DNA of 64,000 nt, taken from positions 128,001-192,000 of the IMG/VR virus record IMGVR_UViG_3300028804_000001; one strand, given 5' to 3'. The stretch is from a virus. Taxonomy: Duplodnaviria > Caudoviricetes. Below the pieces are notes generated by a model. That model did not search any database. It was not told where the DNA came from and was given only the letters and a program-made list of their open reading frames with translations. Positions 39,823-59,400 of this stretch are shown here, piece by piece. Within the stretch, counting starts at the first letter, position 1. Each line of letters begins with the position of its first letter. Both the position numbers and the translations under genes were made by a program.

Positions 39823-42800
39823 TAGAACTCCTCCACAAATTTACCATCGAGTAAACTATTAGCTTTGATATGATCCCAGATTCTAGAAACTAAAAGATCG
39901 TGCGAGTTATTAAATAAGTTAAGCAATGTTTCTATTCTAAATGCTGTAGCATTTGGTTTATTGGCCGGATCCTTTACATTATATCTACTACTATAGTATC
40001 TTTCTAATGTACGAGCTTCTATATCTCTTTCTCCATATTTCTGAACCCTTTCTTCAATGCTTGCCAGTCTCTGGAACTCTGCAATTAAGAATGCTCGTAT
40101 CTTCTCTCGTTCATTAGCCAAACCATGTGCAGTAGTTGTGCTCTGTTCTGAACTGGTTATTGTGGTATTCTGATTATTATCTAGGTTCAAGTTCTTAAAA
40201 GCGTATACTTCCATTTCAAGATTTATTAATCTTTTGGCTTCTATTTCTGAAAGTCCGGTGAAGCTTCGTGCTGTAAATGAATAGTTCTTTATCTCATTAT
40301 ATCTTCCCTGTATAGCCTGCTCATAATTTCCATCTAAAAGATATCTAAGAAGGTTAATACGAGAACCAATATAAATCATTGTCTCGGCATATAGAACATT
40401 CTTCCACTCTCCAACTGGACCCACATTATCAATAAGATCCCTTTTTATCATCTCTGTAGTTCTTGCTGGATTTAAAGATTGTTGGGATGCAATTATTAGT
40501 GCCACTCTGTTGCTTACGCCATTCATTACCTTTCTAGCTAAAGCTCCCAGGAATTTAGCTCTTTGTAGATCTGTTCCATCGCCCAGATTTATAAGAGTGT
40601 TGATGGCATCTCCAATTCTTGCAAAGATACTTCTTCCATATTTACGAGCTATCTTTCTGGTAAATTGAATGGATGAATCTGTGGCAGCGGCAAAAGATTT
40701 ATCTGGCCTGAAATCCCTTACAAATGGTTCAAAGGTATCTGCGTGATATGTATAAAAGAAATCCTTTTTATTTACAGAAGCATCTACATACTCATGAAGC
40801 AAATGCGTATAGTAATTTCTAAATGGTGCACATTCACTTATATTACTAGTAATATCTCTAGCTGGCTGAAGATAAGATAAACCTTCTAATTGTGGTTCAG
40901 TGTAGATAAAGTAATCAACAAACTTATTTGGATTTAATGGCCTTGGTCTTGTATTTCTATCACCAGGTCTTGTTTTAGGTTTAGAAACAGGAGCACCTTG
41001 GAGCAGATCTTTATCTGCAGAATCTATACTCCCATTTACTTTACTAGCCCCAAATACATCAGTTCCAAATGTTCTTCCATTGTTAGTATACGATGCAATT
41101 GTTCCAGCTGCATACATAATAGCTGGAGGCGTGCTATCGTCTACAGTTGAACTATCACTTCCACTTCCAGAATTAGTATACTGAGCATTGAATTCTTTTA
41201 TATATACATTCCTTAACATCTCTTTAGCCATAGCTAAGAATGAGCCCTGGTTTAGAAGTTTAATGGCATTGCTTATATAATTAGAATCGGTGCTCTCTGC
41301 AGCTAAAGCAACTATACCTGGGATATTAAATAATCTGGTCTTGGCATACCCAACAATGAATACATATCTACCGATAAGTTTACTATAGGTAATACTCAAA
41401 ATTACACATGGTAAGTTGGCAGTTAGAGTTCCAAACTTATGCTCGAATGCTATAAGTCTAAATGTATTATTTGCTTCCTGGCTTGTTAGATTAGTTAAAA
41501 CATCTCCATTAGAGAATACTCCATTACCAGATAGCCCAACTACTGGAAATGGAATTGCTTCTACCTGTCCTATAACGGAATCTTTTCCTTCGAATAATTG
41601 CGAAAACATAGTATCGCTAAGAGTTATATTCTCCTCTTCCCCATAATTCCAACTAAAAGTAGAAGTTATTGGATAGTGATCAGAGAATTCTATGGCCTGT
41701 TCAACTACAGGAATAACTGGAAAGTTCCGGGGATTAGTAATGATATAATCTTGCTGAACTGCTTGTTTCCATTTTCCCATCCTCTGTTCCCTAGACTGTT
41801 GATCGGTAACAGCATCTGGATTATCATTTGATGATAATGGTAAAACTCTTACATTAATTAACCATCTATCCTCAATGTCTAAAGGATTATTTGGATCTTC
41901 TATTCGAGGGATAAAGGCCTGAAAACCATCATAATACTCATCGATGATTTTATTAGTAAGGTGGTTATAACTATAACTTACTTTGGTTCCAGTCTTAAAG
42001 AAATGATAGCTATAAAAAATATGATCAATAGTTGTGAATGCTGACTCGATCCCATTAGCTGCTGCAGATTCTTCATAGAATGTTCCATACTGTCTTCTAT
42101 ATGCAGCTAGCTCACCTGATCTATTCTCGTTAGTTGGATTAGGAGCAAACTTAGGAGATAGAGCGTTGAACATTACCAGGCGACGCATTTCCTGAAATCG
42201 TTGTTCTACTTTATCATCAGAACCATATTTAAGGTAATCGGAATAAAAGTTACCTGGCCCATAGAAATAATCTTTTAAGTTAACACCAAAATTAATTTTA
42301 TTAATACTATTGGGATCATCTGCATTTGCAAGAAGACGCATAAGATCTGGATCTTCACATGTAATAATATCCATTGCATACTGGAATAAACCAGTTAGAT
42401 TAGGATCTGGTGTAGTATTAGATAGTGATTGTCTTAAAGATCGAACCCCTCTCTCTTGGAAAGTTCTAGATCTTTCATCCATTACTCTAAATACAACTTT
42501 GGCTGCTCTACGAGTAGATAAGTCTTTCTTAATAACAAAGTTGCTAAAACCTTGAAATCTTAATTCATCAAGTCCGGATGACTCGGGATAATAACTATAG
42601 TTAAAGTCACCAGCTACGATATATGGAATATCTTCATTTAAAGATAATATCTCCTTTAGAAGAGCCACAGATTCTAACTTTCTAACTTGTTCTGTAATGA
42701 AACCAGAATCAGTTACGTTTGTTGATAAACCTTCTCTTGCTTTAAAGTGGCAACAGTAAAGGGCTAACTTATTACCATTTCCCCTGCTTAGCATTACCTT

Positions 42801-44900
42801 AAGAACTGGCCTTAGATTAAAGTCAGGTCTCGTTTGCCCTTGCTGGTCTAAGCTTAATGATTTAATACCAGGTGCAAGATTCTCTGGATAGAGAACTCCA
42901 CTCTCATTCACTTCAATCTTTAGCTTAGTAAGAACTCCAACTGTTTGTATTGTAACTCCAGCTGGGAAAGAATACGCTTCGTATTTTATAGTATCTATCT
43001 CATTATTTGGATGGGGCTCTCTGATTTTTCTGGAAGCGATACTGTTAAGCATATCTCTAAACATATGCAATGCTAGAGATTTATTTCCCATTTCCTCGAG
43101 TATGATTATATCTGGATTCTGATCATGGAGAAATTTAGCGAATAAGAATAATCTATCCTGACCTACTTCTTGATCTACCAAACCTTGTTCGTTCATCCCA
43201 GGGATACCAGTGGACTTTTCAGTGAGGACAAGGTTCTTAAGGTTGTATTGAACTATCTTTAGATTTTTTCTCTGATTATAATCTCTTTGATGTTTAACCT
43301 CAATGGAGTCATCAATTGCTACTGCAGAATAATTTGGATTATTGGGATACTTGAGTTGAATAAACTTACCGGGTATCTTCTGCGAGTTTAAGTTTATTGT
43401 TCTACTAATCTGTGGAACGGTAGCCATCGACTGGTTCTTTCTTATAGCCGAACCAATATCATATTGAATACTATCTCCAAGAGTCTTACTAAGACTTCCT
43501 ATAGCATTTAAATTATAACTAAGATCCTGGCCTACGCCAGAGTTTAAAATAAAACCATGATCGGTAGATTCTTCTGCAGAAATAGAAAACTTATCATTTA
43601 GAAAATATGGAGCTATGGATATGGCCCCATTTTTAATATCTTCTACAATAACTGCATGTGCGTGATCTGGATTAGGAACAGTTAGACCAAGAGCTTTAAG
43701 CTCACTTTCAAATTCATATACTGTCGTATTCTGTATATTAGTATGATCTAAAAGAGAATAACTTAAAAGATTATCATCTCCGGCCATATTAATTGGGCCA
43801 TCATAGTCTGCTAGATCCTGGAGCCCAAACATCCTGGTGATCTTATCTATCAGTTCGTTATCACCTTTATAGGCATACTCAAGAGCTTTCTGATTTACTA
43901 ACTGAGTCTTTACTCCATCTTCATGTTTAACATACAGAGGCCGTGTTCCATATGCTGCTACTGTTGAGATAGCCCGCACAACAAAGATTACTTCAAATGC
44001 ACTCTTCTTATCTCGAATACTTTGTATTGAGAAGTCAATAAGCTGAATATAGAATGGGACTTCCCAGTATGCTTTATTGAGAAGGAATTCTTTAAGCTGT
44101 GTAATTCTATCTACTGTTATCTCTCCAAAGTTATCATCCATGCCAAAGTATTTGGCCAGAGTTCTCATCTCCTCTCCGCCGATATTACGAAGTGCAGGAG
44201 AATCTGCAATAGGAGAATCGGCTAATTTAAATAGTTGGTCTAATTGGAGATTCTTTGGCGTTGGTAAAAAATTGCCCTGGTCATCAAGATGACCTTTATT
44301 ATACAATAAGTAGAGATCAATGTTATCATCTATTGGAGTAACAATCCTCTGTAGATCGGCGTTGTGTACTGGCAAGAAGGGAGCCAGCATGAACTGAGCC
44401 ATTAGAGGACGAATATTATTATGAATGGATAATGCGTTACATTGAAACTTAAGAGTGAATACTTTATCAATAGCCTTGTTGCGTTCAATAATGACTGCTG
44501 CAGGAGCTCCGATAGAGTCCCCCGTCATTACATTGTTCTCTGCACCTACACTAAAGCCGGTAAACTTTTCCAGGGGATCCCTGGTCATTGAGGACTGTAG
44601 TCCTATCTTATTTCTAAACTTATCTTCATCTCTCTTATTAAGATCATTAATAAGTTCTTTGGTAGGATCTACCCATTCTGCTCTATCCTGCTCGGGACGG
44701 ATGTTTACGGATATGATGCGGCTAGGAATACTAAGCCAGGTATCTCCAATCTTAATCGCAGATTGGTTCTCCTTAGTTCCAAAGGTCTTTTGGAGGATTT
44801 CATCTATGATCTCTCTATCAGTTCTTACCTGATTAAGTGCAATAGCATCAAAATCAGATGACTTGAATACAAGATCCTCTATTCTGTTAGGGACTTCCAT
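39822..44900 (-). CDS. Large tail/baseplate protein with an internal endonuclease/exonuclease/phosphatase (EEP) domain (1692 aa)
   Basis: Ordered EEP motifs: LKIVQYN(553), PDIIILEE(603), CCH(718)FKA, YIVAGD(765)FN, TID(959)HIF, FSD(1074)H(1075)YPI. Confidence 0.8.
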   Translation of the reverse strand: MEVPNRIEDLVFKSSDFDAIALNQVRTDREIIDEILQKTFGTKENQSAIKIGDTWLSIPSRIISVNIRPEQDRAEWVDPTKELINDLNKRDEDKFRNKIGLQSSMTRDPLEKFTGFSVGAENNVMTGDSIGAPAAVIIERNKAIDKVFTLKFQCNALSIHNNIRPLMAQFMLAPFLPVHNADLQRIVTPIDDNIDLYLLYNKGHLDDQGNFLPTPKNLQLDQLFKLADSPIADSPALRNIGGEEMRTLAKYFGMDDNFGEITVDRITQLKEFLLNKAYWEVPFYIQLIDFSIQSIRDKKSAFEVIFVVRAISTVAAYGTRPLYVKHEDGVKTQLVNQKALEYAYKGDNELIDKITRMFGLQDLADYDGPINMAGDDNLLSYSLLDHTNIQNTTVYEFESELKALGLTVPNPDHAHAVIVEDIKNGAISIAPYFLNDKFSISAEESTDHGFILNSGVGQDLSYNLNAIGSLSKTLGDSIQYDIGSAIRKNQSMATVPQISRTINLNSQKIPGKFIQLKYPNNPNYSAVAIDDSIEVKHQRDYNQRKNLKIVQYNLKNLVLTEKSTGIPGMNEQGLVDQEVGQDRLFLFAKFLHDQNPDIIILEEMGNKSLALHMFRDMLNSIASRKIREPHPNNEIDTIKYEAYSFPAGVTIQTVGVLTKLKIEVNESGVLYPENLAPGIKSLSLDQQGQTRPDFNLRPVLKVMLSRGNGNKLALYCCHFKAREGLSTNVTDSGFITEQVRKLESVALLKEILSLNEDIPYIVAGDFNYSYYPESSGLDELRFQGFSNFVIKKDLSTRRAAKVVFRVMDERSRTFQERGVRSLRQSLSNTTPDPNLTGLFQYAMDIITCEDPDLMRLLANADDPNSINKINFGVNLKDYFYGPGNFYSDYLKYGSDDKVEQRFQEMRRLVMFNALSPKFAPNPTNENRSGELAAYRRQYGTFYEESAAANGIESAFTTIDHIFYSYHFFKTGTKVSYSYNHLTNKIIDEYYDGFQAFIPRIEDPNNPLDIEDRWLINVRVLPLSSNDNPDAVTDQQSREQRMGKWKQAVQQDYIITNPRNFPVIPVVEQAIEFSDHYPITSTFSWNYGEEENITLSDTMFSQLFEGKDSVIGQVEAIPFPVVGLSGNGVFSNGDVLTNLTSQEANNTFRLIAFEHKFGTLTANLPCVILSITYSKLIGRYVFIVGYAKTRLFNIPGIVALAAESTDSNYISNAIKLLNQGSFLAMAKEMLRNVYIKEFNAQYTNSGSGSDSSTVDDSTPPAIMYAAGTIASYTNNGRTFGTDVFGASKVNGSIDSADKDLLQGAPVSKPKTRPGDRNTRPRPLNPNKFVDYFIYTEPQLEGLSYLQPARDITSNISECAPFRNYYTHLLHEYVDASVNKKDFFYTYHADTFEPFVRDFRPDKSFAAATDSSIQFTRKIARKYGRSIFARIGDAINTLINLGDGTDLQRAKFLGALARKVMNGVSNRVALIIASQQSLNPARTTEMIKRDLIDNVGPVGEWKNVLYAETMIYIGSRINLLRYLLDGNYEQAIQGRYNEIKNYSFTARSFTGLSEIEAKRLINLEMEVYAFKNLNLDNNQNTTITSSEQSTTTAHGLANEREKIRAFLIAEFQRLASIEERVQKYGERDIEARTLERYYSSRYNVKDPANKPNATAFRIETLLNLFNNSHDLLVSRIWDHIKANSLLDGKFVEEF

Positions 44901-45019
44901 TAACGCTTAATAGTTCTAACTGATACTTCTTCCTGGGCCATTGCTTCTAAAGTAGACTTTATCTTATCCTCTATACCTGGTTTATACTTATCTGCTGGAA
45001 TCTGGATTATAAAGCGCAT
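44900..45019 (-). CDS. Small 39-aa protein (below the ORF-track cut-off)
   Basis: MRFIIQIPADKYKPGIEDKIKSTLEAMAQEEVSVRTIKR*. GGGGA RBS-like motif upstream of the ATG at 45019. Its TAA overlaps the next ATG (TAATG), as in the rest of the operon. Confidence 0.65.
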   Translation of the reverse strand: MRFIIQIPADKYKPGIEDKIKSTLEAMAQEEVSVRTIKR

Positions 45020-45115: not shown

Positions 45116-48100
45116 TTATTGTATACGTACTCCGTAAGAGGACTTTTGTTTAAAGTTCTGATTACGGGCATGGTCCTTTTGTTGTATAAAAGTTCTATTC
45201 TGCTGCGCATACTGCATTGCTGTTGCAACATCTACAGCTCTATTTGGATCCGCGGCTTCTACCATAGGAGCTCTAGGTTTCATATTCATCTCAGATTGTT
45301 TGCGGGCTTTCTTTTCCCAATACTCGCCACCCTTACCCTGAGTTCTGTCTAGATCTGGAACAGCATAACCACTTAATAACTGGTTAATTCCCATGGCTAA
45401 GAATGTTCCAACAAGAGCACTCTTTCCCATATTTTTCATTTCCAATGCTGTCGAATGATAGGATTTATTAAGGTTTAATCCTCCTTCTGCATGGCTTATA
45501 CTATCCCAGTAATTATGAGATTCATGTTCATTACTCAGTTTAAAAAGCTCAGATACATCATCTGCTCTTTTATTTAAAAACCAGGCTGCTCCAGATATGG
45601 CAGCTCTTCTTGGAGCTCCGGCATGAGTTTCATTTATCCATTTAACATAACCATGGAGATCAAGCTCTCCATTACCGCGGAGATATTCATAACCCATTTC
45701 TGCAGATCGCTTCATTACTCTAAAGCCACGATCAGCTTCAGCTGCTCCAGTTATTCTTAACTGAAGTTCTACCATTCCTTTACTAAGATCAAAGTCTCTC
45801 ATCATACGAACATGGCCGGCTCTTAATTCCATACTGAGAGCATAATGTGCCATTAGAGTATGTGCACCTGCATTAGTAGCTCCCATCTTACTATAGTCTT
45901 CCATGTCGGAAGCCATCTGGGTTAGGATAGCTCGTGAAAGGTTTCCAGCTTTAGCAGATCTGGATAAGTTCCTATAGTATTTATCTGATCCAAATCTCTC
46001 ATAAGCAGAATGGAAAAACTTCTCGAGGGCTTCAGACTGGCTACCACCATGTTTTTCAACAACAGCATTTATTCTAGCCTGAAGATCTCCAACAGCAGGT
46101 CCTTTCATTGCTTGGATGTTTACATTCTTCATAGCTTCAAGAGTTGGAATTTCTCCATTCTGTGAAGCCATTAAAGATTTAATAGCCAGGTCACTTGATA
46201 GCATTCTCTTCTTAACAATATCTAGATAACCTGAGTATCTCATACGGCCTAGATCCTTTCCAGTTCTAGCCATTACATTCTTTTCCCAGGCCCCAAGATC
46301 TACTTCGAATGCTCTAAAGTTAGATATCTGTCTTACAGTGTTCTTAAACTTATCCAAGCTATCTGGAGTTATCTCTGAAAATGGATTAGTAGGATCTACT
46401 AATTTAACATTCTTTGCAGCTTCCTGCATCCGCTCTACAAAGCTTCTAATGATATTAGCAGAGCCGTGTTTCGATTGCATCGCCAATTGTTCTGCAGCCG
46501 GCCTTATAAATCTCTCTCTTAAAGTATCTATTACCTCAGTATTAAAAGATGATGGGATATTACTGGTCCCATATCTCTTCTTCATATCTTCTTTAAAAGC
46601 CTCTCTACTTGCAGCATGCTTAACTCCAGTAAACCAATTACGCTCAGCTACCTCTAGAGTTAGGTTTGCAAAGGTAGTATATTTATAAGGGACACCGGCA
46701 GCATCTTTAACTATTGAACTGGTCTCAGGACTTATTCTACCACGAAGATCACTAATAGGTCCAGATTCATCTCCAAGTTCCTGAAAGAAATTTTCCAATC
46801 TACTCTTCAAACCTTCAGAGGTTTTTTTGTATTTAGATGCTAGCTTCTCTCTAGCATCAGAAATAAAAGCAGCTTTGATAGCCCCATCATCAGCAGCTAT
46901 CTGTGCAAATACCCCACCGGAACCACCAGCTCCAGGATGGTGCATTGTGGCTGTAAGCTTACCAGAATTCTGAGATAAATGTAATACTATCTTTCTAGAA
47001 TCGTGATCTGCAAGACCATGGCTAATAAAAAATAGCTCATCTACATTAGCACCGGCTCTACCTTCCATCCTAGGTTTTAGGATAGATTTGGTGTATGTTT
47101 TAGTTAGATCCTCTATCTCTTGAGGAGTAGCTTTAATATTATAAAGATGAAGAGTGTCCTTAACATGGGAATCTATAACATCTTTAAGAGCAGTCATTTG
47201 GTAATATGCATTCTTTCCGATATCTGCACTCTTGCGTAGCCATCTCTGGGTAGCTACGTTATATGATCTAAACGTACTCTCATTAGAAGGCTGATAAAGA
47301 AGCCGTTCTTGTAAAAGACCGGAAGCTCTTATCTGTAATTCATTCCTGGCATGCGCAAGCTTAACTGCCTTATCTTCTATTGTTGATATATAAAGATCTC
47401 TAGAACCTCTCCCAATATGATACATTAAGTCCGAGTCCTGGTCACCATCAGCCAGAGCAATATCTATAGATGATCCAAAGATCTGACCGTTATGAAGGCT
47501 GTTATCTATTCTAAGAAATAGCTGTCTAAAGTCAGTTGGACTGTAAATAGATTGTCTAAAGGATGTAAGGGCAATATTGATATTGCCCTTCATTATACCT
47601 CTTACTCTACGAACAGATTCATCATATAATTTTGCCTTAAGAGAATTAGCACTCTCTGGATCCTGCAGAGACTTGATAAAATCTATAAGGCCCGTTTCTC
47701 TTTTAGATACAGAAGAACGTTTAAGGAACCTTAATGCATTGTGAAAATCTTTGAGCTGCTTATGATCCTTAATCCTTGTGATATCTGTTTTCTCAAGATA
47801 GTCTATGAATGTTTGAAGATGACCGAGCTCCTTTACTTCATCCCATATAGGAGATACAGTATGTACACCCTGACCTTCGGATATATTCGTTGATATTCTA
47901 ACAGCTTCATTAACAAGCTTTATCATTTTGTTAACTTTGGCAGCGTATTTATAAGCCTTTCTGCCACCATGGTCAACACCAAGCATGAAGCGAATTGCTT
48001 CTTCCTGATTCATAGTTATATAGCCGGCTGCCTGCTCAGCTGATATTGGTATAGAGCCATTTGTTCCAACCTTGGCCTGGATAGCATCTGATCGGAACAT

Positions 48101-51100
48101 AGAATATGTCCCAGGAATAAGCTGCTTATAACCTCTGTTTTCTATCTGGGTCCCTTTACCTGCCCCATGAGTCTTAATATACTCAGCTATACCATTGAGA
48201 TCATTGGCAAACCCATGAATAATATCTGTATTCAGTTTTTCTAATGCGGAGAGAGTAGCGCCGTCTCCTTTATATGCTCTCTTAGATTCTGCTATATAAT
48301 CTAGAGCAGATACCATTTGCATAAAACGCATAGCGACATCAGTTGATGAGCCTTTAGTTATTTTAGCTATTCGAGCACTTGCTATTTTCTTACCATCTAC
48401 ATTTTCCAGTGTAGCTTTTCTAACTACATCTTCAATATCGTGATGGTTAAACTCTAATGGTGCTTCTAATATATTCCTATTTCCAAGACCGCTAAGCTGA
48501 TTAACTATGGCTTCCGATCCTTCAAACCCACTTAATAAGATCTTAAGGGTTGCAGGACCTTTACCAGAATGCCTGATCACATCTTCTAAATTCTTTCGTA
48601 GTATGTTGAATTGTTCTACACCTATTTCCTTGGATGAATCGAATAGCTTAGTAGCAGCCTCAGTAATATTCATACTGGAAAGAGAATGCGGTCCTCGTAT
48701 ATTTCCTCTTGCTTCAGCTATAGTAGCATCAATAAGATCTTTAAAATCTAAGAATTTATTCTGCTGGATTTCCCCAACTATTGCAAGAGCCCTATTTGCA
48801 TCCCCACCTGCCTGAGCAACTGGATCAGTTAGAAATGGATTCCGCTTTGGATCAAACGAGCTTCTCTTTCTATCAGTTCTATAAGGATGAAGGAGCATGC
48901 TTCTAATGGCATTTCTCTTAACCTTAATATTACCCGCGGCAGATTTTATACTATCTGACATACTCTTGGCAGAGTCTAAGAATCTTAATTGAAAATCTAT
49001 TTCCTTCTCGAGCCATAACTTTCCAGAAGCCATATGCTCCTGAACCATATTAGCTGCTGCTGGATTCCTTTGCTTTAAAAGCAGAAGGTCTCTCATGTTG
49101 AAATGTACATTGCTGGGAAGAACTCCGGATCCACCACGCGGAAAGAACTTAGCAGTGGCATCAGTTCCATACATAATAGTATGAGTATGCTGTCCCTCTA
49201 TAATCTGAATAGGAGAGAACATACCGCTTAAGGCAGATACATCTCTTTTAGCTTCTACCTTTAAATCGTGAGATCCAATATCTCTTATAAGCTCTACCGC
49301 TAATTTTGGAGCACCGGCACTCTGAGAACCATAACGAAATTTATGAATTAAATCAGATACCAATTCTCCAGCTTCTACAAGTGGATGATATGTTCCTACT
49401 CTGGTATCCTTATCTATAGCTTTCTTAACTATAGTTTCAAGTTCACTATTAAGCTTTCCTGGATTATATATATCAAAATCTTTTAAAGGGTTTAGCTTAT
49501 CATCTTTCCCTATCTGCCATAAAACCGGAGCAGGCCCAATGACATCATCTATAAAACCCCCATTAGGTATTCCTCTTTTGAGATTAACTATAAAATCATA
49601 CTCTCCGGTTTTATTTACTACAACGGGAGCAGCAGTGTAAAAATTACTAGCTATACTCTTTGCTCTTTCTACTGCATCTGCCAAACCTTGATTTGATTTG
49701 AGTAAATCGACAAATGATGATGTTCCTTTCTGAACTTCGCGTAATCCTCTCAAAGCCTGTATATTATATTCATGAGCACCAGCTGCATCTTTTGATATCT
49801 GAAATGGGGTAAGAGTAGATAAGAAAGTATATTCGAGAACATACTTCTGTAGATTCAGAAGATTTGTTATTCTCTTACCATGAAAGTCTACTAACTTGAA
49901 TCTATTTAAGAACCCTTCATTCTTTAGATTTCTTAAACTCCATGCCTCTAGCCTGGGATTTCTTTTACGGAATTCTTCATATCTTTCTTTAAGAGCATTA
50001 ACTGTAGCTCGCATTGTCTGGTTATAAACATGAGTAATTACTCCCATGGTTTTATAGCCAGTTGTTCCTTTACTGGCAGTATCTGCTATAATGAACCCTC
50101 TTCTACCTCCAGATAATCCTGCAGCATTTGCAACCTTATTCAAATAAGGATCCTGCATTGCTACTTCAAACTCTCGAGTAGACATAGCAGCTTTTTCTAC
50201 CACACCATAATGCTTGGCTTGTTTGTAGTCCCCATCTGGAACAGATTTAATAGCATCAAACTCCAGAGTTCTAATAGGTGGCTCTACATCATTATCTCCA
50301 ACCGGCTGAGATCTTATGTGAGCTTTCCAGGATAGGAGAGACTGAGAGAATGAATTGAACTCCCATCCATTAGCTCCTCTTCGTGAGAATACTTCTACAC
50401 CAGCATCTAGATTGTGTTCTTTGAATGTACGACTAATATAACTTCTAGATACTTCTTTATCTGTTCTACTTGCAAGCTGCGCCTGAGCCGATTCAGTTTC
50501 GGTAATTAGTTTTTCTAGAAAGCTTCTGGCTCTATGGCCAGTTTTAATTATCTTACTCTCTCCTATTCCTTCAATAGCAAGTTCTATATCCCATTTACCA
50601 GTTTCTTTATTGATGAACTTTCTAAGATGGAACTTTCCAGAAGAGGTAGTTGTTACTACGCCAGTAATGCCATCCTCATAACCATCTTTAGCTAACACTC
50701 TCAAAGCACCGTCTTCTACAGCAGACCACTGGGCACCTCTCGAGGATACAATAGTAGCAACATTGTGTTGCACGTTTGATACAGTCTGCTGTAACCCATT
50801 TGCTATTCTTTGTCTTTGTACATCATCCAAAGATCTAAGAACGGAATTAAGCTCATCTGCTGGATCCCCAGTCAACTGGAGGAATCTTAATCTATGAGTC
50901 TTACTCCCAAAGTCGGCTTCTATTACACTTTTCTTATTATCTATTCTATATGAGGGATAGGCTATAGAACGAATACCTACATTTCTATCTCGAACGTAGT
51001 TTGCATTGGTAGATATCCTGGTATACTTTCCAATCTCATCTGGGCTTACAGTATCTATGAACTCGCCAAAGGTCTTAACAAAATCGTCAAAGCCCTTAAC

Positions 51101-53458
51101 TTTGGTCATGACTTTTCCGGCTTTAGACTTGGCTCCATCCTGCATAGCCTTAAAGCCATTGAATAGATTTTTATAGCGTTTCAGAGCCAGAGAAGAGGCA
51201 GTTGCCATTCCATGTTCGTTATAATCTCTTTCGAACTGCATTCGAATGGCAGCCATCCGATTATGGATCCTACTGTAAAAAGCATCACTATAGGCCAATT
51301 GGGGGCCTTCAAACACTAGGGATACTTTCTTAAATACATCCGCGGTTGGATTTTCTTTATTCCTTGGAGCAGCAAATGTGAATTCAAAGGTCCTATTTCC
51401 GCCGGCACTTTGAATGGTTTTTGAATAGATTTTTCTAGCTAATTGTGCCGAATCGTATCTAGACTGACGGGCATCCAGCCTATCCGTAATACGCTTATAT
51501 CTGCTGTACACTATCTCGTTGAATGAAGGAGATACTCCTCCTTCTTTTGGTTCTACGCCCCATTTATTCTTTATACGATCTAACAAAAGATTATTGGCAT
51601 CTATAGTCTTAAATGAGAACCCAAAATTAACTCCAGTTTGCATCATCTCTTTAACATGGCGTGCATACTTTGTGGCCATCTGATTAGACCATGGAGTAAT
51701 CGATGCTACATTAAAAGCTCTAGGATCTGCAAGCTTTCTAGATCCTGGATGTCCTTGAATATCATCCGGGCTCATCTTAAATGACCAGCTAAATTGATCT
51801 TTAGTTCCTGATAATCCCGTGGGTATCTTCGGAACTTCATTTAGATGCCCTAGCTTACTGGTAAGGATATCATCCATCTTATGGAATAACTTATAGTGAT
51901 CACTCCATGCAAACATAACATCTGCTGCCATACGAGATGCAGATGAAGCTTTTCCACCATTAGCAGCATAGTCTGCCCAGTAGTTTAAGAGCAAACCTCT
52001 CTTCTGCATATAGTTATGAAAACCAGTTCCAGTTAAAGCCTCTCTAAGATCTGCAGGCATATCTGGACTGGTAAGCATTTGTGCTAGAGGCCCTTCTCTA
52101 AATGATCTATCCCATTCATCATCTCCACTAAGAAGACCCATCAATACATGTTCTGATGCAGCTTTCTTGGCATCGAAAGAAGCACGCATTACTCTAGCAT
52201 CTTCGAGCCTTGCTTCTTCTTGTCCTACATCTATATATTTCTTTTCTCCATCTTTATCACGGTAAGATTTAACATCACCAGATCCACCTTCTACAAGTCT
52301 ACGCATCATTCGGTAACTTAAGGATGAATAGGTGGCAACTGAAGATCCTTCATATTCGCCAAAGAGAGTAGAAGATGCGCGCAATAGAGCTCCACCATTC
52401 TTAGTTCTCTTGGCTAGTTCTTCAATAGTTTGGCGCCCTCTTCCAATATTTTCCAATTCTGCTAAGAAGAATTGCGTGTAGCTCATATAACCAGAAGCTA
52501 CAGATGTTTTACTTCCAGATCTAAGGACGGCTCCCTGGAATCCTATTACTCCATTAGAATCTGAAGATATGACATTTATATTCCTGGGTATTCTCTTAGC
52601 ACCAGGAACTCTAGGTATACTGCCAACTCTAGTCGTTACTTCGATATTGGCATTGTACATATCAAAGGATCCGTCTACTGGTACAGCAACATGAATCTCA
52701 TGAGTAGATCCAGTAGTTCTATCTCTTACTTCAAATGCGGTTATCTTAATACCAATCTGACGGGCTGGTAGTCTTCTTGCTATTGGTCCATTTTCATTAG
52801 TTACTAATTCATAATTGCTATGAGCATGCTTAGAATATTCATCAAGCATCATCATAAACTTTCTTTCTTCTCTAGACATCTGATCTGGAGTGATCATAGA
52901 TGCCAGCTTCATTGGAGTATGTTCTATACCACCGGCAGCTTCTGCAAGAGTCTTATCGAATGGACTCATCTTACTGATTACATATTCTTCTATAACTGCT
53001 TTTTGTTTTCCAGGATCGTTGGAGTATTTCTCCATTAAGTTCTTAAGTTCATCATGAGCTCCAGCCATAACCTCTTCAAGAGAGAGATTACTAAGCTGAC
53101 CTTCATCACGTATGTTTCTTAAAAGCTGCGCAAGTTTAGGATCTCCTTCTACAGTATATCCGCCAGGAGAAGCCTCGGTTCTTTTAAAGAACTCCTCCCC
53201 TTCCAGGATGAGGGGATTCCTTTGTGGATTTCTTTTACGCTCTCGCTCGGCATGAATCTTACGATATTCATCTTCAGCCTTCTTAACCATCTTTCCCTGT
53301 TGTTTAGCCATGGCATTTCTAAGTGCCAGGACACCAACAGGGACACCTACAAAATAGGCAAACTGCTGAAGAGGAAAAGCGGCTTTAGAGATAATCCCAG
53401 GATCTGTTGGATCATCTTCATTATCCGGTAAATCTACATTATGAAAGTAATCTTTCAT
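45116..53458 (-). CDS. Candidate single-chain two-barrel (DPBB) RNA polymerase, probably virion-associated (2780 aa)
   Basis: Beta-like motifs: NVATIVSSRGAQWSAVE(915)D(916)GAL and RTLEFDAIKSVPDGDYK(1079)QAKHYGVVEK(1089)AAM. Beta'-like motifs: NIALTSFR(1968)QSIYSP and IALADGD(2006)QD(2008)SD(2010)LMY. Order matches a fused beta-beta' polymerase. Confidence 0.65.
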   Translation of the reverse strand: MKDYFHNVDLPDNEDDPTDPGIISKAAFPLQQFAYFVGVPVGVLALRNAMAKQQGKMVKKAEDEYRKIHAERERKRNPQRNPLILEGEEFFKRTEASPGGYTVEGDPKLAQLLRNIRDEGQLSNLSLEEVMAGAHDELKNLMEKYSNDPGKQKAVIEEYVISKMSPFDKTLAEAAGGIEHTPMKLASMITPDQMSREERKFMMMLDEYSKHAHSNYELVTNENGPIARRLPARQIGIKITAFEVRDRTTGSTHEIHVAVPVDGSFDMYNANIEVTTRVGSIPRVPGAKRIPRNINVISSDSNGVIGFQGAVLRSGSKTSVASGYMSYTQFFLAELENIGRGRQTIEELAKRTKNGGALLRASSTLFGEYEGSSVATYSSLSYRMMRRLVEGGSGDVKSYRDKDGEKKYIDVGQEEARLEDARVMRASFDAKKAASEHVLMGLLSGDDEWDRSFREGPLAQMLTSPDMPADLREALTGTGFHNYMQKRGLLLNYWADYAANGGKASSASRMAADVMFAWSDHYKLFHKMDDILTSKLGHLNEVPKIPTGLSGTKDQFSWSFKMSPDDIQGHPGSRKLADPRAFNVASITPWSNQMATKYARHVKEMMQTGVNFGFSFKTIDANNLLLDRIKNKWGVEPKEGGVSPSFNEIVYSRYKRITDRLDARQSRYDSAQLARKIYSKTIQSAGGNRTFEFTFAAPRNKENPTADVFKKVSLVFEGPQLAYSDAFYSRIHNRMAAIRMQFERDYNEHGMATASSLALKRYKNLFNGFKAMQDGAKSKAGKVMTKVKGFDDFVKTFGEFIDTVSPDEIGKYTRISTNANYVRDRNVGIRSIAYPSYRIDNKKSVIEADFGSKTHRLRFLQLTGDPADELNSVLRSLDDVQRQRIANGLQQTVSNVQHNVATIVSSRGAQWSAVEDGALRVLAKDGYEDGITGVVTTTSSGKFHLRKFINKETGKWDIELAIEGIGESKIIKTGHRARSFLEKLITETESAQAQLASRTDKEVSRSYISRTFKEHNLDAGVEVFSRRGANGWEFNSFSQSLLSWKAHIRSQPVGDNDVEPPIRTLEFDAIKSVPDGDYKQAKHYGVVEKAAMSTREFEVAMQDPYLNKVANAAGLSGGRRGFIIADTASKGTTGYKTMGVITHVYNQTMRATVNALKERYEEFRKRNPRLEAWSLRNLKNEGFLNRFKLVDFHGKRITNLLNLQKYVLEYTFLSTLTPFQISKDAAGAHEYNIQALRGLREVQKGTSSFVDLLKSNQGLADAVERAKSIASNFYTAAPVVVNKTGEYDFIVNLKRGIPNGGFIDDVIGPAPVLWQIGKDDKLNPLKDFDIYNPGKLNSELETIVKKAIDKDTRVGTYHPLVEAGELVSDLIHKFRYGSQSAGAPKLAVELIRDIGSHDLKVEAKRDVSALSGMFSPIQIIEGQHTHTIMYGTDATAKFFPRGGSGVLPSNVHFNMRDLLLLKQRNPAAANMVQEHMASGKLWLEKEIDFQLRFLDSAKSMSDSIKSAAGNIKVKRNAIRSMLLHPYRTDRKRSSFDPKRNPFLTDPVAQAGGDANRALAIVGEIQQNKFLDFKDLIDATIAEARGNIRGPHSLSSMNITEAATKLFDSSKEIGVEQFNILRKNLEDVIRHSGKGPATLKILLSGFEGSEAIVNQLSGLGNRNILEAPLEFNHHDIEDVVRKATLENVDGKKIASARIAKITKGSSTDVAMRFMQMVSALDYIAESKRAYKGDGATLSALEKLNTDIIHGFANDLNGIAEYIKTHGAGKGTQIENRGYKQLIPGTYSMFRSDAIQAKVGTNGSIPISAEQAAGYITMNQEEAIRFMLGVDHGGRKAYKYAAKVNKMIKLVNEAVRISTNISEGQGVHTVSPIWDEVKELGHLQTFIDYLEKTDITRIKDHKQLKDFHNALRFLKRSSVSKRETGLIDFIKSLQDPESANSLKAKLYDESVRRVRGIMKGNINIALTSFRQSIYSPTDFRQLFLRIDNSLHNGQIFGSSIDIALADGDQDSDLMYHIGRGSRDLYISTIEDKAVKLAHARNELQIRASGLLQERLLYQPSNESTFRSYNVATQRWLRKSADIGKNAYYQMTALKDVIDSHVKDTLHLYNIKATPQEIEDLTKTYTKSILKPRMEGRAGANVDELFFISHGLADHDSRKIVLHLSQNSGKLTATMHHPGAGGSGGVFAQIAADDGAIKAAFISDAREKLASKYKKTSEGLKSRLENFFQELGDESGPISDLRGRISPETSSIVKDAAGVPYKYTTFANLTLEVAERNWFTGVKHAASREAFKEDMKKRYGTSNIPSSFNTEVIDTLRERFIRPAAEQLAMQSKHGSANIIRSFVERMQEAAKNVKLVDPTNPFSEITPDSLDKFKNTVRQISNFRAFEVDLGAWEKNVMARTGKDLGRMRYSGYLDIVKKRMLSSDLAIKSLMASQNGEIPTLEAMKNVNIQAMKGPAVGDLQARINAVVEKHGGSQSEALEKFFHSAYERFGSDKYYRNLSRSAKAGNLSRAILTQMASDMEDYSKMGATNAGAHTLMAHYALSMELRAGHVRMMRDFDLSKGMVELQLRITGAAEADRGFRVMKRSAEMGYEYLRGNGELDLHGYVKWINETHAGAPRRAAISGAAWFLNKRADDVSELFKLSNEHESHNYWDSISHAEGGLNLNKSYHSTALEMKNMGKSALVGTFLAMGINQLLSGYAVPDLDRTQGKGGEYWEKKARKQSEMNMKPRAPMVEAADPNRAVDVATAMQYAQQNRTFIQQKDHARNQNFKQKSSYGVRIQ

Positions 53459-56400
53459 TATACTATTTCTATCGTAACCTGCATTGGGCCGTCAGATTGT
53501 TCAACACTTATTGTAGGCCGCATACTAGACAGAATCCTCTGCAAATGAGCCTTTACCTGCTGCGCATCTACTCTATATGAATCCTTTCTTCTAGGACCGT
53601 CTATATCTTCTATAGTCATTTCAGGGATATGCATTCCCATACTCTGCATCTCTGCCATTCTTCTACGAGTCTTCTGCCATCCTAGGCCGGCATCTGTAGC
53701 ATTAAGACCAGCATTATCCATCGTCTTAACAGCAACATCTTCAAGAGGCTGATCGTAGTCTGATACAATCTTTGGATCTACTTTGTAATTACCAGAGAAA
53801 GAACCGGGTAAGTAATCTCTCTGAAGTCCCATTGATCTATCTGCCAGGATAGAAACTTCCTCTGGCATTACTCTTCTAAACTCAGATATGTTTGATGTAT
53901 TTAATTCACTCAAGATATCATTTAAATACATCCGTTCCTGTTTATTGGAAACAGAGGCTATCCTGGAATTTGTTATAACCTGATTAGATTCCAGGGTGGC
54001 AGTCATCGTATTCTTCATACGATATCTATATTCAGAGGCGCCTGTGGAATCGTATAATTCCTTATAGCGTTCCATCTCTGCTTGATCGGCAGCAGCTAAA
54101 ATCTGCCGCATCTTCTGGGTCTTATCAGGAATCCAGCCCGCACCATTAACTATCTGAGCTCCAGTAAGAGACCATGCAGTTCCAGCTAATCCACCAAGAG
54201 CTGCTCCTACAGAACCACCAAAAGCAAAGCCGGCCGTAACCCCAGATGCAGCAGCCTGCAATGGATCCGTCTCTCGAGCCATAAGGTTAAAGTATGGCGA
54301 TACATATGAATCAATGGGATGATTCCACGTTTTAAAAGATTGGCCATAAACCATATCTTCTTCATAAGCTTGGAGAGCTGTTTTATTACCTATGAACTTC
54401 CTAGTGATGGGGTTTCTAAATGTGGATAAATATTCCCATGCTCCACCAATAGCTCTCTCTAAAGGATTGTATTGATCATCTACTTCTCTCTGAGATGTTA
54501 CTTCATCTGGAGTTAATGCATCTCCTTGATTAAGGAATCTAGATTGCATGAAGTTCATGCTCTTTCTTTGCTTCTCTACTTGATCCAGAGTATCCTGGTA
54601 TACCTGAATATCATTCTCATCAAGTAGTCCTTGATTCATTTGAGCTCTAACGATCTTAAGTGTGGATCTATACTGATCACTAAACGGTGCAACATCTGCC
54701 AGGATCTGCAGTCTATCTATCATGCTGTAGTTTATTCCTGGTGCTACTGGTAGACCTTCATCATATCTCTTCTTCATGGCAGTTAAACCTTTCTGCCTGT
54801 TCATTAAATCTACCGCGGATTCTTGTTCATACTTATCCTGGTCGGCCTGAATAATCTCTTCTGTGGTATGACCTTGCTCATCAATACCAACAAGCAATCC
54901 TCTCTTCTGGCCACTTAATACCAGGTAAGCATTCATTGCTCCTTTAGATCCTTCTATAAATCCTCCGGCCTTAGCTAGATAGGGTGCAAACTTAACAGAT
55001 ACAATATCTCCAGAATCTGTTTGGTATGTAGCATCGGCATATGCTGTTAAGTTCTTTGATGTATCATATACAATACTCTGCTCTTTCATAAGCTTGCCTT
55101 CAGCTTTGATAAGAGCTAAGATTTCCTCTTTCTTCTCGTTTACTTTATCGGCCCATTGATATCTAGGAACAATTACCTCAACATCTCCTGAGTAGAAACC
55201 AATTGCATCCTTACTATTTACACCAAGCATATCAGCTTCACCAGGAGTCGCTGGTGTGATGTTTCTTAGAGTCTCATATGCTTCCCCAGGTAATCTTGCT
55301 TCCCCCGCATCTACCTTTGAATATGGATCCCCATGTTTAAAGTCGGTGAAGTATTCTGATCCCGGCATCCAGTTTGGCTGCAGGTTACGTACTGGATTAT
55401 ACATCTCATAATCTTTGGCCTGTCTAGGAAAGATACGACGGATACCTTCGGTAAGGCCCATAAGGCCACCGAGCTGCATATCCCAGAAGCTGCGCCCTAA
55501 GGATCCAATGTTTGGTGCATCTATCTCAGGAGTCTGAGAGAATAGCTGTTTATTGCCTGTAAATACGTCCTGAAGAACTTCAGCACTAAAACCTCTAAGA
55601 CCTCCAACTTCCTTTAAGTTATAGAATCCGTGTGATAATCTACTCTCTATACTATCTCCTTCTAAAGGATCCCCATAGAAAGCATTCTCTACCATACTCG
55701 AGGCGCCCATACCAGTAGCTCTGGCCAGCCTTTGAGTTTCAGTTCCTCGGTTATGGATAATAGCATTAGCGGTTGCCTGTGCAGCTGCCTGTGTTCCAAC
55801 CATATCCACATCATCTCGATGCATTGGAGTATTTCCAAGATTAACAAATGGTCCTATGATTGGTATGTTAGAGAATACTCCAGGAGCTGCAAGGGAGGGT
55901 CTAGAATAGTAGTGCTTCCTGTTATAGACCGCGGGATCTACATAGCTCATCATCTCAGTCATGAGATCGCTTTTAAAGTTGGGAGACCAACGGTAGTCTG
56001 ATCTCATCATTGCATACATATGCGGCCGGAAGTAACTGGTCTTATCGCCCAGGAACGAGTTACTACCCAGTTCCCAGAAGCGGGATGTTCTAATCTCTAC
56101 TTCTTTTTCACCTTTGAATTCTGCTAAAGTTTCTGCTCGGTTCTTAGATATATCCCATTCTCCAAATAATCCAAGTGGTCCACCGCCCAGTAACATACCA
56201 ACTGCACCACCGATAACACCACCAGTAATCCCACCCCGAGCTCCACCAGCAGCAAATCCCTTTGTAGCTCCAATGACAATAGGGGCAAGACCTCTCAGAG
56301 CTCCAGATAAAGGAGAGCTAATAGATCCTGGTAGCCAGTTCTCTAAATACTTTGCAGTGCTCGTAACTCCAAGAGTATCAAGAACTCCCTGTGCACCTAA

Positions 56401-59400
56401 ACGCATACCAGCATATGCATTCATTGGTAGCATATAGATTCCCTCTTTAAGAGGGGTATTGTCAAACAGGGTGCTGTTATCTATAATTCTATCTGCAGCA
56501 GTGAGGCCGGCAATTAAACCACCAACCGGTAGGATCCTCTTGGTAATCCACTTCTGGCCGAGCTCTCTATAGTTGGCATAATGATCTATACCAACTCCCA
56601 GGAGACCCATGGTCTTATTAAATGTCCCGAGAGCGGCTGCCATGAATTCATGACCAAGACCGGTATAGTTTGCTATCTCTTTTGGATTCTGCCCATTGGC
56701 ATCATATAGCATGGAAGTCCTGGCAGTTCCAGAACCTTTATCTCCAAATAGAAATACAGTATCAGAAGAGAGAGGAGGATACTTATAACGTGTTGTGGAC
56801 ATGGATTTCATCATCTGAGATCCAGGCGCCAGTAACTTTTTAACTACCGCTTCCTCTTCCGGTTCTATCTTTAGTATTAATCTATTTATAACATCATTAA
56901 CATTATCGTGAAAGTGTTCAGGTGGAACGGTTAAATCTGGAGTTTGCAAACTCTTAATTGCATTGATCTGAGCATGCGACTTCATGATATTTGAATATGC
57001 TCTAATCTCAGTATCACTTCTATATCCTGCCTTACCCAATACCTTGGACATGGCATCTATGCCTTCGATTATATTACCCTGTCTATCAGTAGTCTTTGCA
57101 CGCAGAGTAAAGTTATGAAGGAGCATTGATTCGTAATCATCTCCAACACTGGAGGTGAAAGATTTACCAGTCCTGGTTAAAAGACTTCGTACGTCAGATG
57201 GATTGGTAGTTGTTATTAAATCTCTCAGCTGCTGAACGGCAGTTACCATGTCTTTGGACTTGTGAGACATTGCCCACTGTTCTACTTTAAGAAGCCTATC
57301 TATAGCTTCTGTAGAATCTTTAACACCATGGAGGGACATACTGCCTAGAGTCTTCCCAGCATCTTTTAAACCCATAGCATCAAGGCTAGATACTATGTTT
57401 CCATAATGCTTACCTTGCATAGTTACAAAGTCAAACATCGAATGCTGGGAACTTACAATTGTATCTTCGAATACACTAAGTGCTGCTTTCTTAAACGTTT
57501 CTCCGCCTGGAGTCTTTGTTAGCTTTGTGAACTCTCCCTTTGCTTCTTTAGTAAACCATGTAACGGCGTTTCTAGGATTGTTCATCTTCTCGAAGAATCC
57601 ACTTATCATTGAGAAGACACTCTTAACTCCAGCGGATCCTATATCCCATTTCTCACGCATGGCGTACGCCCACCCAAGAGCATCCTCTGTGGGTACTCCG
57701 TACATATGGGCCATATCTGCTATTTCACCTGGACTCCTAGGTCTTGCGTAATTAACTCCAACATAATAGGATCCTTCTCCTTCTCCTATTTTCATAAACC
57801 CAATACCTCTGGCAACATGCTCTGCCATATTGGATTTATTATTCTCTACGAAGTGTTTTATCCTACCTCCACCTGCCAGGGTATATTCCTTACCAGAATG
57901 ACCATTGAGTAATGTTCCATATCCATTCTCATCTATACGGAAGATACTTCCTTTCTCCAATGGGAGAATGCCTTGTTGGAGATTTCTAAGAAGTCTTTCT
58001 TGAAATGGCCGGCTTACATTAACCCCACCGGTATTACCAGCATCAAACTTAATATCATTATGAGCTAACCATAGATCATCTAGAAGAGTCTTGGCATGAA
58101 CTTTAACATCCTTGGATGGTCCAAGAAGATCGGCCAATGCCTTCTCAGTCATAGGCCTGAGATCTCCATTAGCATGTGGATCTGCAGAGGCACTAAAGTT
58201 ATCGAAGATAGTATTTAGATCTTTCCCTTGTAAAGATCTGGCTTTGTATTGTGGTGCAAATATCTGACGATTGGGAGCACCATGGATATACGATCTAGCA
58301 GTTCTGGTAAAGCTACTTCTAAGATAGTTAGCACCACCGGTTATAATCTTCAAAGGGGCCAGCCCCATTATATTAAAGTTATCAAGAGCATTAGCAGCAA
58401 GATCTCTAATCTTGCCCATGTGAAAAGCTCTAACATCAAATACCTGGCTTTCACCTTCTCCATATCTTATAAGACCACGATCTCTAAAATAGACATTAGC
58501 ATCATTGGCAGCATGACTTCTAGAAAGTCCCAGAACTGCATCATTCTGAAACATATCTTTTTGTTTATCTGGGAAAAGCTTCTTAACCCACTTAACAATT
58601 CCTTCATCTTTCTGAATCATCTCTCTGTGTTGTCTAGCTAACTTAACTGCGAAGTCAGGAGTTAAATTAGCATGCGCATCTGCAGCAGATAAGATGCCTC
58701 GAGTAACATGTATATCTTCGCTAAAGATACTTCTCTTATTAAGCCTGAAGTCTCTATGCGCTTCGACTAGATCTTTTGCTCTTCTTCTAAGACCGCGGAT
58801 ATTTGTGAAGTCTTGCCAGTGCCTATTCTTAAAAACCTCCTGTTTCATATGGGATACATAACCCATATTCTCTCCAGCCTGTCGGCTTACAGCATTCATC
58901 CCATGGAAGAGAGCCATCCCAATAGGAGCCATTCTCCCTTTATCGATCATATGATGAACGAAGTTAGCTCTCATCTGCTTACTTACCATACGGCCGGCAG
59001 ATGATAATGCACCGAATGCTAAAGAGATAGGAAGGTAAGAAGCATAGTAATGTGCAAAGTTCATGTCCCGCATCTCGGGACTCTTTGTCTTATCGTATCT
59101 ATAGATAGCATACATGACTGGCATAATTGCCAGTTCATTCTTTGCATAATCGAGGGCCCAGGTTCCTACTCTCTGGTTGTGTCCTCCACCTAAGAATCTA
59201 CCAAGAGCTCTAGAAGTTTTAACTGAGAACGGGGACATCTCACCGGCAAACTTCTCAGCTTCAGTAGCAATACGACGCATAGAACGGTATACAGATTGGT
59301 ATTGCTTACGTGCTGTTCTAACAGCAGATCTAGTTACTATATCGTTGAGTGGCTTACCACCATGCTCAAGTATCTCTTTAGTGAGAATGTGTTTCTTTAA

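What the first reader, a model, noticed from the sequence alone, without database searches (positions are those of the whole stretch)
45116..53458. Divergent single-chain two-barrel RNA polymerase hidden in the tail module
Seen in sequence: four motifs in order. (1) NVATIVSSRGAQWSAVEDGAL, E915-D916 at 50711-50716. (2) RTLEFDAIKSVPDGDYKQAKHYGVVEKAAM, K1079/K1089 at 50192-50224. (3) NIALTSFRQSIYSP, R1968 at 47555-47557. (4) IALADGDQDSDLMY at 47429-47449. Established: bacterial RNAP has beta NMRVAFMPWNGYNFEDSI and [26 protein letters not shown], and beta' VLLNRAPTLH about 35 aa before NADFDGD. The R-to-DxDxD spacing here (36-38 aa) matches. Single-chain virion RNAPs of this superfamily are known from crAss-like phage phi14:2 (gp66) and, fused to the tape measure, from Thermus phage P23-45 (gp96). 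Inference: this is a virion-packaged RNAP with a non-canonical DQDSD catalytic loop, encoded as a separate gene coupled to the tape-measure-position gene of a contractile-tail phage. Automated annotation would probably call it hypothetical.
Basis: partly seen in the sequence, partly recalled or inferred. Interest (0 to 1): 0.92.

Follow-up and report, generated by a model that had tools for sequence, protein, structure and literature searches.

The report
Possible virion RNA polymerase, unproven

Summary

**What holds.** Motifs 3 and 4 survive in the only distant homologue (P0003, about 23% identity). These are R1968, then 38 residues, then G-D2006-x-D2008-x-D2010. They sit in the strongest internal conservation peak (46% against a 21% mean). 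The R-to-D spacing matches E. coli beta' (35), the phage's own 920-aa RNAP (35), phi14:2 gp66 (39) and P23-45 gp96 (38).

**What fails.** Motifs 1 and 2 (E915/D916, K1079/K1089) are not conserved. They also lie about 900 residues upstream, where no known single-chain enzyme has its second barrel.

**What could not be tested.**
- Both AlphaFold runs failed (pLDDT 34 and 37), because the family has only two lineages covering the core, plus one C-terminal fragment.
- Pfam, PHROGs, NCBIfam, PDB and hhalign gave no significant RNAP match.
- Controls show these methods have low power here, though known RNAP families did find each other by hhalign in two of three pairs.

**Context.** The contractile tail is supported. 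The "tape-measure" label for the upstream gene is not. The downstream 3050-aa protein is the better candidate.

I put the RNAP reading at about 0.4. The scan has noted tail-module RNAP-like giants in other about 200-kb phages, but no sequence look-alike of this family.

The parts
45116..53458 (-). P0001, a 2780-aa ORF with no family assignment
   Evidence: No Pfam, PHROG, NCBIfam or PDB sequence match.
47420..47578 (-). Residues 1961-2013: the conserved R1968 ... G-D2006-x-D2008-x-D2010-L-x-Y block. It is the candidate beta'-like barrel with a metal-binding loop.
   Evidence: 23 of 53 residues are invariant against P0003. It is the top internal conservation peak. It is the best window for the r920 beta'-block profile, in the correct register.
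47969..48136 (-). Residues 1775-1830: a lead for the second (beta-like) barrel. Conserved Y-K1778-x-x-I-P-G, then T-M-N1817, then L-G-V.
   Evidence: Invariant residues. It is the top window for the crAss beta-like block, but by a small margin and in a register that rests on a P0001-only insertion. Unverified.
53300..53449 (-). Residues 4-53: conserved N-terminal segment with a moderately hydrophobic stretch
   Evidence: 40% identity to P0003. BLAST HSP over residues 1-115.
45260..45427 (-). Residues 2678-2733: the most conserved part of the family. A Gly/Ala-rich hydrophobic helix followed by a basic tail.
   Evidence: 66% identity to P0003. Also present in the third lineage fragment L006.
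50702..50764 (-).
50183..50272 (-).
53458..59517 (-). Upstream 2019-aa ORF, coupled to P0001 by a TAATG overlap. Function unknown.
   Evidence: No family match.
44900..45019 (-). 39-codon ORF between P0001 and the next giant gene, coupled to that gene by TAATG
   Evidence: Read. A 142-aa ORF holds the same position in the P0003 contig.
39822..44900 (-). Downstream 1692-aa ORF with a weak endonuclease/exonuclease/phosphatase match. It is a conserved neighbour in all three lineages.
30670..39822 (-). 3050-aa ORF with strong hydrophobic segments and a lysin-like segment. It is the better tape-measure or channel candidate.

Best explanation
P0001 is most likely a virion-carried giant protein with three parts. 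The conserved N- and C-terminal segments would serve packaging, ejection or membrane contact. The central core (roughly residues 1750-2350) would be a very divergent single-chain two-barrel RNA polymerase.

In this reading, R1968 and D2006/D2008/D2010 form the beta'-like barrel with its Mg site. The second barrel lies 150-250 residues upstream, not at 900-1090. The enzyme enters the cell with the DNA and transcribes the first phage genes, which may include the phage's compact 920-aa beta/beta'-type polymerase.

- **Shown:** the ORF, the conserved motif block, its spacing, the virion-operon context, and the presence of a second genuine RNAP gene in the genome.
- **Inferred:** the fold, packaging into the virion, ejection, and catalysis.
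For: 1. R1968, G2005, D2006, D2008, D2010, L2011 and Y2013 are invariant in a homologue of about 23% identity.
2. The block is the highest internal conservation peak.
3. The R-to-D spacing of 38 compares with 35 in E. coli beta' and in the phage's own 920-aa RNAP, 39 in gp66 and 38 in gp96. The local pattern is also shared: a hydrophobic strand, G-D-x-D-x-D, then a further hydrophobic strand. P0003 reads R-H-P-x-H, as the 920-aa RNAP does.
4. In shuffles the combined pattern arises in only 2-3% of sequences.
5. In an unbiased sliding-window hhalign scan, the beta'-block profile of the 920-aa RNAP family ranks this block first of 135 windows, in the correct register. This largely restates the motif.
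6. Context: the gene is TAATG-coupled inside a run of giant genes in a structural operon. A sheath-like protein, tail fibres, portal and terminase are present. The same synteny occurs in two other lineages. gp66 likewise sits between giant virion proteins.
7. The genome encodes a genuine fused beta/beta' RNAP (PF00562, E about 1e-9 to 1e-11). Several phages with their own polymerase also carry a virion polymerase (PMC10770324; PMC7824862).
8. Controls show that negative family searches carry little weight. The proven RNAP gp66 gets no Pfam family even at E<=10. The crAss barrel HMM does not detect the phage's real RNAP.
Against: - No significant similarity to any RNAP family in Pfam, PHROGs, NCBIfam, PDB sequences or PDB profile search.
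- Whole-core hhalign against crAss vRNAPs, gp96 and the 920-aa family gives spurious top hits. Known families do find each other at the Asp-loop region in two of three pairs.
- The crAss, gp96 and rpoC beta'-blocks do not rank the site first.
- The residues between the aspartates are polar (Q/S, T/K). The four RNAP references compared here have F at the first of these positions and G or I at the second.
- The proline of R-x-P is S in P0001.
- No convincing second barrel was found. The best candidate rests on weak scores and partly on a non-conserved insertion.
- A conserved acidic loop can serve other functions.
Confidence: 0.4

Rival explanations
1. P0001 is a non-catalytic ejected or tail-internal structural protein, for example part of a trans-envelope conduit, an internal tail protein or a ruler. 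The conserved acidic loop binds a structural metal or a partner, and the resemblance to RNAP is convergent.
For: - The most conserved parts are the hydrophobic N- and C-terminal segments, not the core.
- The low-confidence models are mostly helical.
- No profile method finds RNAP similarity.
- The neighbours are giant proteins with membrane-like segments and a lysin-like part.
- DxDxD alone is common by chance.
Against: - The sharpest internal conservation falls exactly on an R...G-D-x-D-x-D block with RNAP-like spacing and flanking pattern.
- This block is among the most beta-leaning windows in both proteins.
- A purely structural role does not explain three invariant alternating aspartates preceded by an invariant glycine.
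Confidence: 0.35
2. The conserved block is the metal site of a different enzyme carried into the cell, such as a phosphatase of the HAD type (motif IV-like G-D-x-x-x-D), a nucleotidyltransferase or a nuclease.
For: - The best PDB profile matches of the block are HAD phosphoglycolate phosphatases, aligned at their G-D-T-D-x-D motif IV (E 0.45, not significant).
- The neighbouring gene carries a weak EEP nuclease/phosphatase match. This suggests an injected enzyme set.
Against: - The matches are far from significant.
- No HAD motif I (D-x-D-x-T/V) was seen by eye upstream in either sequence.
- No Pfam, NCBIfam or PHROG enzyme family matches.
- The conserved arginine at RNAP-like spacing is left unexplained.
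Confidence: 0.15
3. One reading: the beta-like barrel lies at residues 899-1092 (E915/D916, K1079/K1089) and pairs with the beta'-like barrel at 1961-2013.
For: The motifs exist. The crAss beta-like block gives windows 881 and 901 ranks 5 and 8 of 135.
Against: - None of the four named residues is conserved in P0003.
- The region is below-average in conservation and is not aligned by BLAST.
- The separation of about 920 residues contrasts with the connector of about 140 residues in gp66 and QDE-1.
Confidence: 0.03

Closest known systems
Cellulophaga phage phi14:2 gp66 (GenBank tag Phi14:2_gp077, PDB 6VR4), crAss-like virion RNA polymerase
   Same: - A giant (2180 aa) virion protein encoded between other giant structural genes.
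- Single chain, with a non-canonical Asp loop followed by x-M-Y.
- An arginine 39 residues upstream.
- Invisible to Pfam.
   Different: - No detectable sequence or profile similarity.
- gp66 has D-F-D-I-D with a hydrophobic second residue. P0001 has D-Q-D-S-D.
- The host phage is a crAss-like virus (order Crassvirales). This one encodes a sheath-like protein and is 225 kb.
Thermus phage P23-45 gp96, tape-measure-fused virion RNAP (PMC10770324)
   Same: - A tail-module location in a long-tailed phage that also has a second, non-virion two-barrel RNAP.
- It was found by the same DxDxD-in-virion-protein logic.
- The R-to-D spacing is 38.
   Different: - gp96 is fused to the tape measure and has a canonical D-F-D-G-D.
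- P0001 is a separate gene with no hhalign similarity.
- The probable tape measure here is another gene.
The phage's own 920-aa fused beta/beta' RNAP (genome 65110-67872; P0005)
   Same: Shares the local signature h-R-[QH]-P-x-H ... G-D-x-D-x-D. Its beta'-block profile picks the P0001 block as the best window.
   Different: It is a clear member of the cellular-type clade: it matches PF00562, and its block profiles detect E. coli beta and beta'. It is small and encoded outside the structural operon. Its HMM does not reach P0001.
Coliphage N4 virion RNA polymerase gp50 (from my own knowledge, and PMC13434306 abstract)
   Same: Works like the proposed model: a giant ejected protein with a central polymerase module flanked by N- and C-terminal parts needed for ejection and encapsidation.
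   Different: The N4 enzyme is a T7-like single-subunit polymerase, with an unrelated fold, in a short-tailed phage.

Membership tests
Two-barrel (double-psi beta-barrel) RNA polymerase superfamily | Triad of aspartates (DxDxD) in the beta'-like barrel | tested here: met
   D2006, D2008 and D2010 are invariant in P0003, preceded by an invariant G. The intervening residues are atypically polar.
Two-barrel (double-psi beta-barrel) RNA polymerase superfamily | Conserved arginine (R-x-P) about 35-39 residues before the first aspartate | tested here: met
   R1968 is invariant at +38. References: beta' 35, the 920-aa RNAP 35, gp66 39, gp96 38. The proline is present in P0003 only.
Two-barrel (double-psi beta-barrel) RNA polymerase superfamily | Second barrel supplying two basic residues | tested here: inconclusive
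A candidate around K1778...N1817 is conserved but has only weak, partly inconsistent profile support.
Two-barrel (double-psi beta-barrel) RNA polymerase superfamily | Two DPBB folds facing one active site, with bridge helix and trigger loop | tested here: inconclusive
   AlphaFold2 on residues 1660-2340 and 1755-2065 gave mean pLDDT of 33.7 and 37.3. No usable model, so no fold search was made.
Two-barrel (double-psi beta-barrel) RNA polymerase superfamily | Significant sequence or profile similarity to a known member | tested here: not met
   The controls have low power. Even so, known families matched each other in two of three hhalign pairs.
Two-barrel (double-psi beta-barrel) RNA polymerase superfamily | Mg-dependent template-directed RNA synthesis | not testable with these tools
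   Needs purified protein.
crAss-like virion RNAP family (gp66) | Homology to gp66, including the D-F-D-I-D-K-M-Y loop | tested here: not met
   No tblastn, HMM or hhalign match. 51 crAss sequences were used as the profile.
Tape-measure-fused virion RNAP (P23-45 gp96 type) | RNAP module fused to the tape measure protein | tested here: not met
   P0001 is a separate ORF. There is no similarity to gp96. The lysin-like and hydrophobic features typical of tape measures lie in the 3050-aa ORF.
HAD-superfamily phosphatase | Motifs I (DxDxT/V) to IV (GDxxxD) | tested here: not met
   Only a motif IV-like match at E 0.45. No Pfam HAD family match. No motif I was seen by eye in the sequence.

The most novel reading that the evidence does not exclude
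P0001 founds a new family of single-chain two-barrel virion RNA polymerases with a polar D-x-D-x-D loop. It is carried by a contractile-tailed jumbo phage that also encodes a compact fused beta/beta' polymerase. This would give the phage a two-step, host-independent transcription programme like that of P23-45, evolved independently, in a lineage seen only two or three times in public data.
Probability: 0.35. Interest if true: 0.8.

Novelty: new variant of a known kind. Interest (0 to 1): 0.55.

Why it matters
Virion-delivered two-barrel RNA polymerases have been demonstrated experimentally in only a few phage groups: phiKZ/AR9-type jumbo phages, crAss-like phages and P23-45. In both single-chain cases, gp66 and gp96, the DxDxD/DFDxD signature in a giant virion protein was what pointed to the enzyme.

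A further family, undetectable by sequence, in a contractile-tailed jumbo phage would do three things:
- widen the known range of this ancient enzyme fold;
- show how far the catalytic loop can drift (polar residues between the aspartates);
- support the idea that injected polymerases are a general solution for phages that bring their own transcription machinery.

If the block is not a polymerase, it still marks the functional centre of a conserved module of four giant genes that no database explains.

Tried and rejected
**Family and structure-database searches on P0001: nothing**
- Pfam, PHROGs and NCBIfam.
- PDB sequence and profile searches.
- tblastn against 50,697 phage records.

**Search for more family members**
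- An exhaustive phmmer search of 1.84 billion representatives found only P0003.
- Word-based searches found only P0002 and P0003.
- Scans of IMG/VR, JGI metagenomes and GTDB contigs, by profile and by two degenerate DNA patterns, found only the C-terminal fragment L006 and three chance matches.
- Scanning IMG/VR with the neighbour gene and with the 920-aa RNAP family found nothing.

**Structure and language-model approaches**
- Two AlphaFold2 runs gave unusable models. I therefore made no fold search.
- The ESM Atlas feature search gave no usable hit.

**Profile comparisons**
- hhalign of the core against crAss vRNAPs, gp96 and the 920-aa family gave only spurious top hits.
- crAss block HMMs against the phage proteome hit a prohead-protease-like ORF and a 449-aa ORF. 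I judged both to be chance.

**Other**
- Exact k-mer search for a repeated promoter word: none.

**Rejected readings**
- Beta-like barrel at residues 899-1092.
- Membership of the crAss gp66 family.
- Fusion to the tape measure.
- HAD phosphatase.

Full report
**Observation.** The window is bases 128001-192000 of a single 225,628-bp IMG/VR virus record, classed linear and about 83% complete. The ORF at 45116-53458 on the minus strand is open for 2780 codons. The start codon overlaps the stop of the upstream 2019-aa ORF as TAATG. The observation as text is therefore correct.

**Context.** Nearly all large ORFs lie on the minus strand.
- PHROG matches identify a large terminase, a portal and a prohead protease at the left contig end.
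- They also identify a sheath-like 834-aa protein (phrog_16991, 1.6e-18), tail fibres and a 'DNA transfer'/metallophosphoesterase protein at the right end.
- The terminase is distantly similar (21-29% identity) to those of jumbo phages such as Bacillus phage 0305phi8-36. A contractile tail is plausible.
- P0001 lies in a run of four giant genes: 2019, 2780, 1692 and 3050 aa.
- The 1692-aa protein has a weak endonuclease/exonuclease/phosphatase match.
- The 3050-aa protein has strong hydrophobic segments and a lysin-like PHROG match. It, rather than the 2019-aa protein, looks like a tape measure or tail lysin.
- The order 'giant, P0001-like, small ORF, EEP-like, giant' recurs in the contig of the distant homologue. 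The P0001-like to EEP-like junction recurs in a third lineage.

**How rare the family is.** P0001 matches no Pfam, PHROG or NCBIfam family and no PDB sequence. It matches nothing in 50,697 phage records.
- A word-based search of 5.8 billion proteins gave one 93% relative, P0002.
- An exhaustive phmmer search of 1.84 billion representatives with residues 880-2060 gave one distant relative, P0003 (2542 aa).
- Further scans of viral, metagenomic and genomic contig collections added only a C-terminal fragment.

**Which motifs are conserved.** P0001 and P0003 align over residues 1402-2365 (23% identity), over the first 115 residues and over the last 104 residues.
- A sliding identity profile puts the C-terminus first (2678-2727, 66%).
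- The block 1975-2024 comes second (46%), against a mean of 21%.
- In residues 1961-2013, 23 of 53 positions are invariant. These include R1968, G2005, D2006, D2008, D2010, L2011 and Y2013.
E915 becomes D, D916 becomes G, K1079 becomes L and K1089 is lost. Their region is below-average in identity.
[quoted passage not shown] A beta-like barrel about 920 residues upstream is therefore also architecturally unlikely.

**How RNAP-like the conserved block is.** The R-to-first-Asp distance is 38. It is 35 in E. coli beta' and in the phage's own 920-aa RNAP, 39 in gp66 and 38 in gp96.
- P0003 reads R-H-P-x-H, like the 920-aa RNAP family.
- All share a hydrophobic strand before G-D-x-D-x-D and another after it.
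- In shuffles, DxDxD alone appears in 44% of P0001-like sequences. Together with R-x-[PS] at this spacing it appears in only 3.1% (P0001) and 1.8% (P0003).
- The residues between the aspartates are polar, unlike those of the four reference RNAPs compared here (F, then G or I).

**Profile tests and their controls.**
- hhalign of the core alignment against 51 crAss vRNAP cores, against gp96 (1-1300) and against the 920-aa family gave only spurious top hits.
- In the same tests, the 920-aa family matched the crAss profile at the beta'-barrel (E 0.0055). The crAss profile matched gp96 at its Asp loop (E 0.061). This is a mild negative for P0001.
- Other controls show low power. gp66, a proven RNAP, matches no Pfam family even at E<=10. 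The crAss barrel HMM ranks the phage's genuine RNAP 166th. The 920-aa family HMM scores gp66 at -0.1.
- In a sliding 80-residue scan of the family alignment, the 920-aa family's beta'-block ranks the four windows covering 1941-2080 first (about 19 against 15.8 for the next). The register is correct. This mostly restates the motif. The crAss, gp96 and rpoC blocks do not rank it first.
- For the second barrel, the crAss beta-like block ranks windows 1741-1781 first, by a small margin. The alignment leans on an insertion absent from P0003. The conserved Y-K1778...T-M-N1817...L-G-V stretch is a lead only.
- A PDB profile search with the block alone returns HAD phosphatases at motif IV (E 0.45) and no RNAP.

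**Structure.** AlphaFold2 with the three-sequence alignment failed for residues 1660-2340 (mean pLDDT 33.7) and for 1755-2065 (37.3). No fold search was justified.

**Biological plausibility.** The genome encodes a genuine compact fused beta/beta' RNAP of 920 aa (PF00562, G-D-F-D-G-D loop).
- Several phages with their own non-virion polymerase also carry a virion enzyme for the first genes. P23-45 is described in PMC10770324 and jumbo phages in PMC7824862.
- gp66 of phi14:2 also sits between giant virion proteins.
- These points raise the prior but prove nothing.
- Earlier notes of this scan describe tail-module RNAP-like giants in other uncultured phages of about 200 kb. No sequence look-alike of this family exists in other windows.

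**Verdict.** The conserved R...G-D-x-D-x-D block is real and functionally important. A divergent two-barrel polymerase core is the best single explanation (about 0.4).
- The half of the model that places the second barrel at 899-1092 is wrong.
- The fold is untested.
- A non-catalytic ejection or structural role (about 0.35) or another metal-dependent enzyme (about 0.15) remain open.

Noticed in passing
genome 65110-67872 (minus), outside the window; L001:5110-7872: A compact 920-aa single-chain RNAP with a beta-type barrel (PF00562, E about 1e-9 to 1e-11) and a G-D-F-D-G-D loop. Only three other homologues (32-50% identity) exist among 5.8 billion proteins, and none in IMG/VR or the phage records.
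   Followed up: partly
genome 92785-95190 (minus); L002:7785-10190: Other first-stage notes call this 801-aa ORF 'YonO/RdRP-like'. It has no DxDxD and no Pfam, PHROG or PDB match in my quick checks.
   Followed up: partly
window 30670-39822 (minus): A 3050-aa ORF with four hydrophobic stretches, the strongest at residues 1037-1089 and 2522-2551. It also has a PHROG 'endolysin' match at 2431-2504. It is a likely tape measure, tail lysin or channel protein.
   Followed up: partly
window 39822-44900 (minus): A 1692-aa ORF with a weak endonuclease/exonuclease/phosphatase match (residues 587-769). It is 35% identical to its counterpart in the P0003 contig and is also present in L006. It always lies directly downstream of the P0001-like gene.
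   Followed up: partly
window 44900-45019 (minus): An unlisted 39-codon ORF, TAATG-coupled to the 1692-aa gene. A 142-aa ORF occupies the same position in the P0003 contig.
   Followed up: no
window about 45070-45110 (minus strand): A 7-bp hairpin with a G-U pair, followed by a T-rich run, just after the P0001 stop codon. The terminator scan does not call it (loop 9, two G-C pairs).
   Followed up: partly
window 23395-24729 (minus): A 444-aa protein with Peptidase_C39-like and CHAP domains inside the structural operon. It is probably a virion-associated cell-wall hydrolase.
   Followed up: no
genome 213427-215022 (minus); L004:7799-9394: A 531-aa protein matching PHROG 1745 'DNA transfer protein' (5e-92), with a metallophosphoesterase part. 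It lies two genes downstream of the sheath-like gene.
   Followed up: no
window 565-8718 (minus): A 2717-aa protein with NHL/Vgb-lyase-like beta-propeller and Laminin-G/ConA-like domains. It is probably a giant fibre or adhesin.
   Followed up: no
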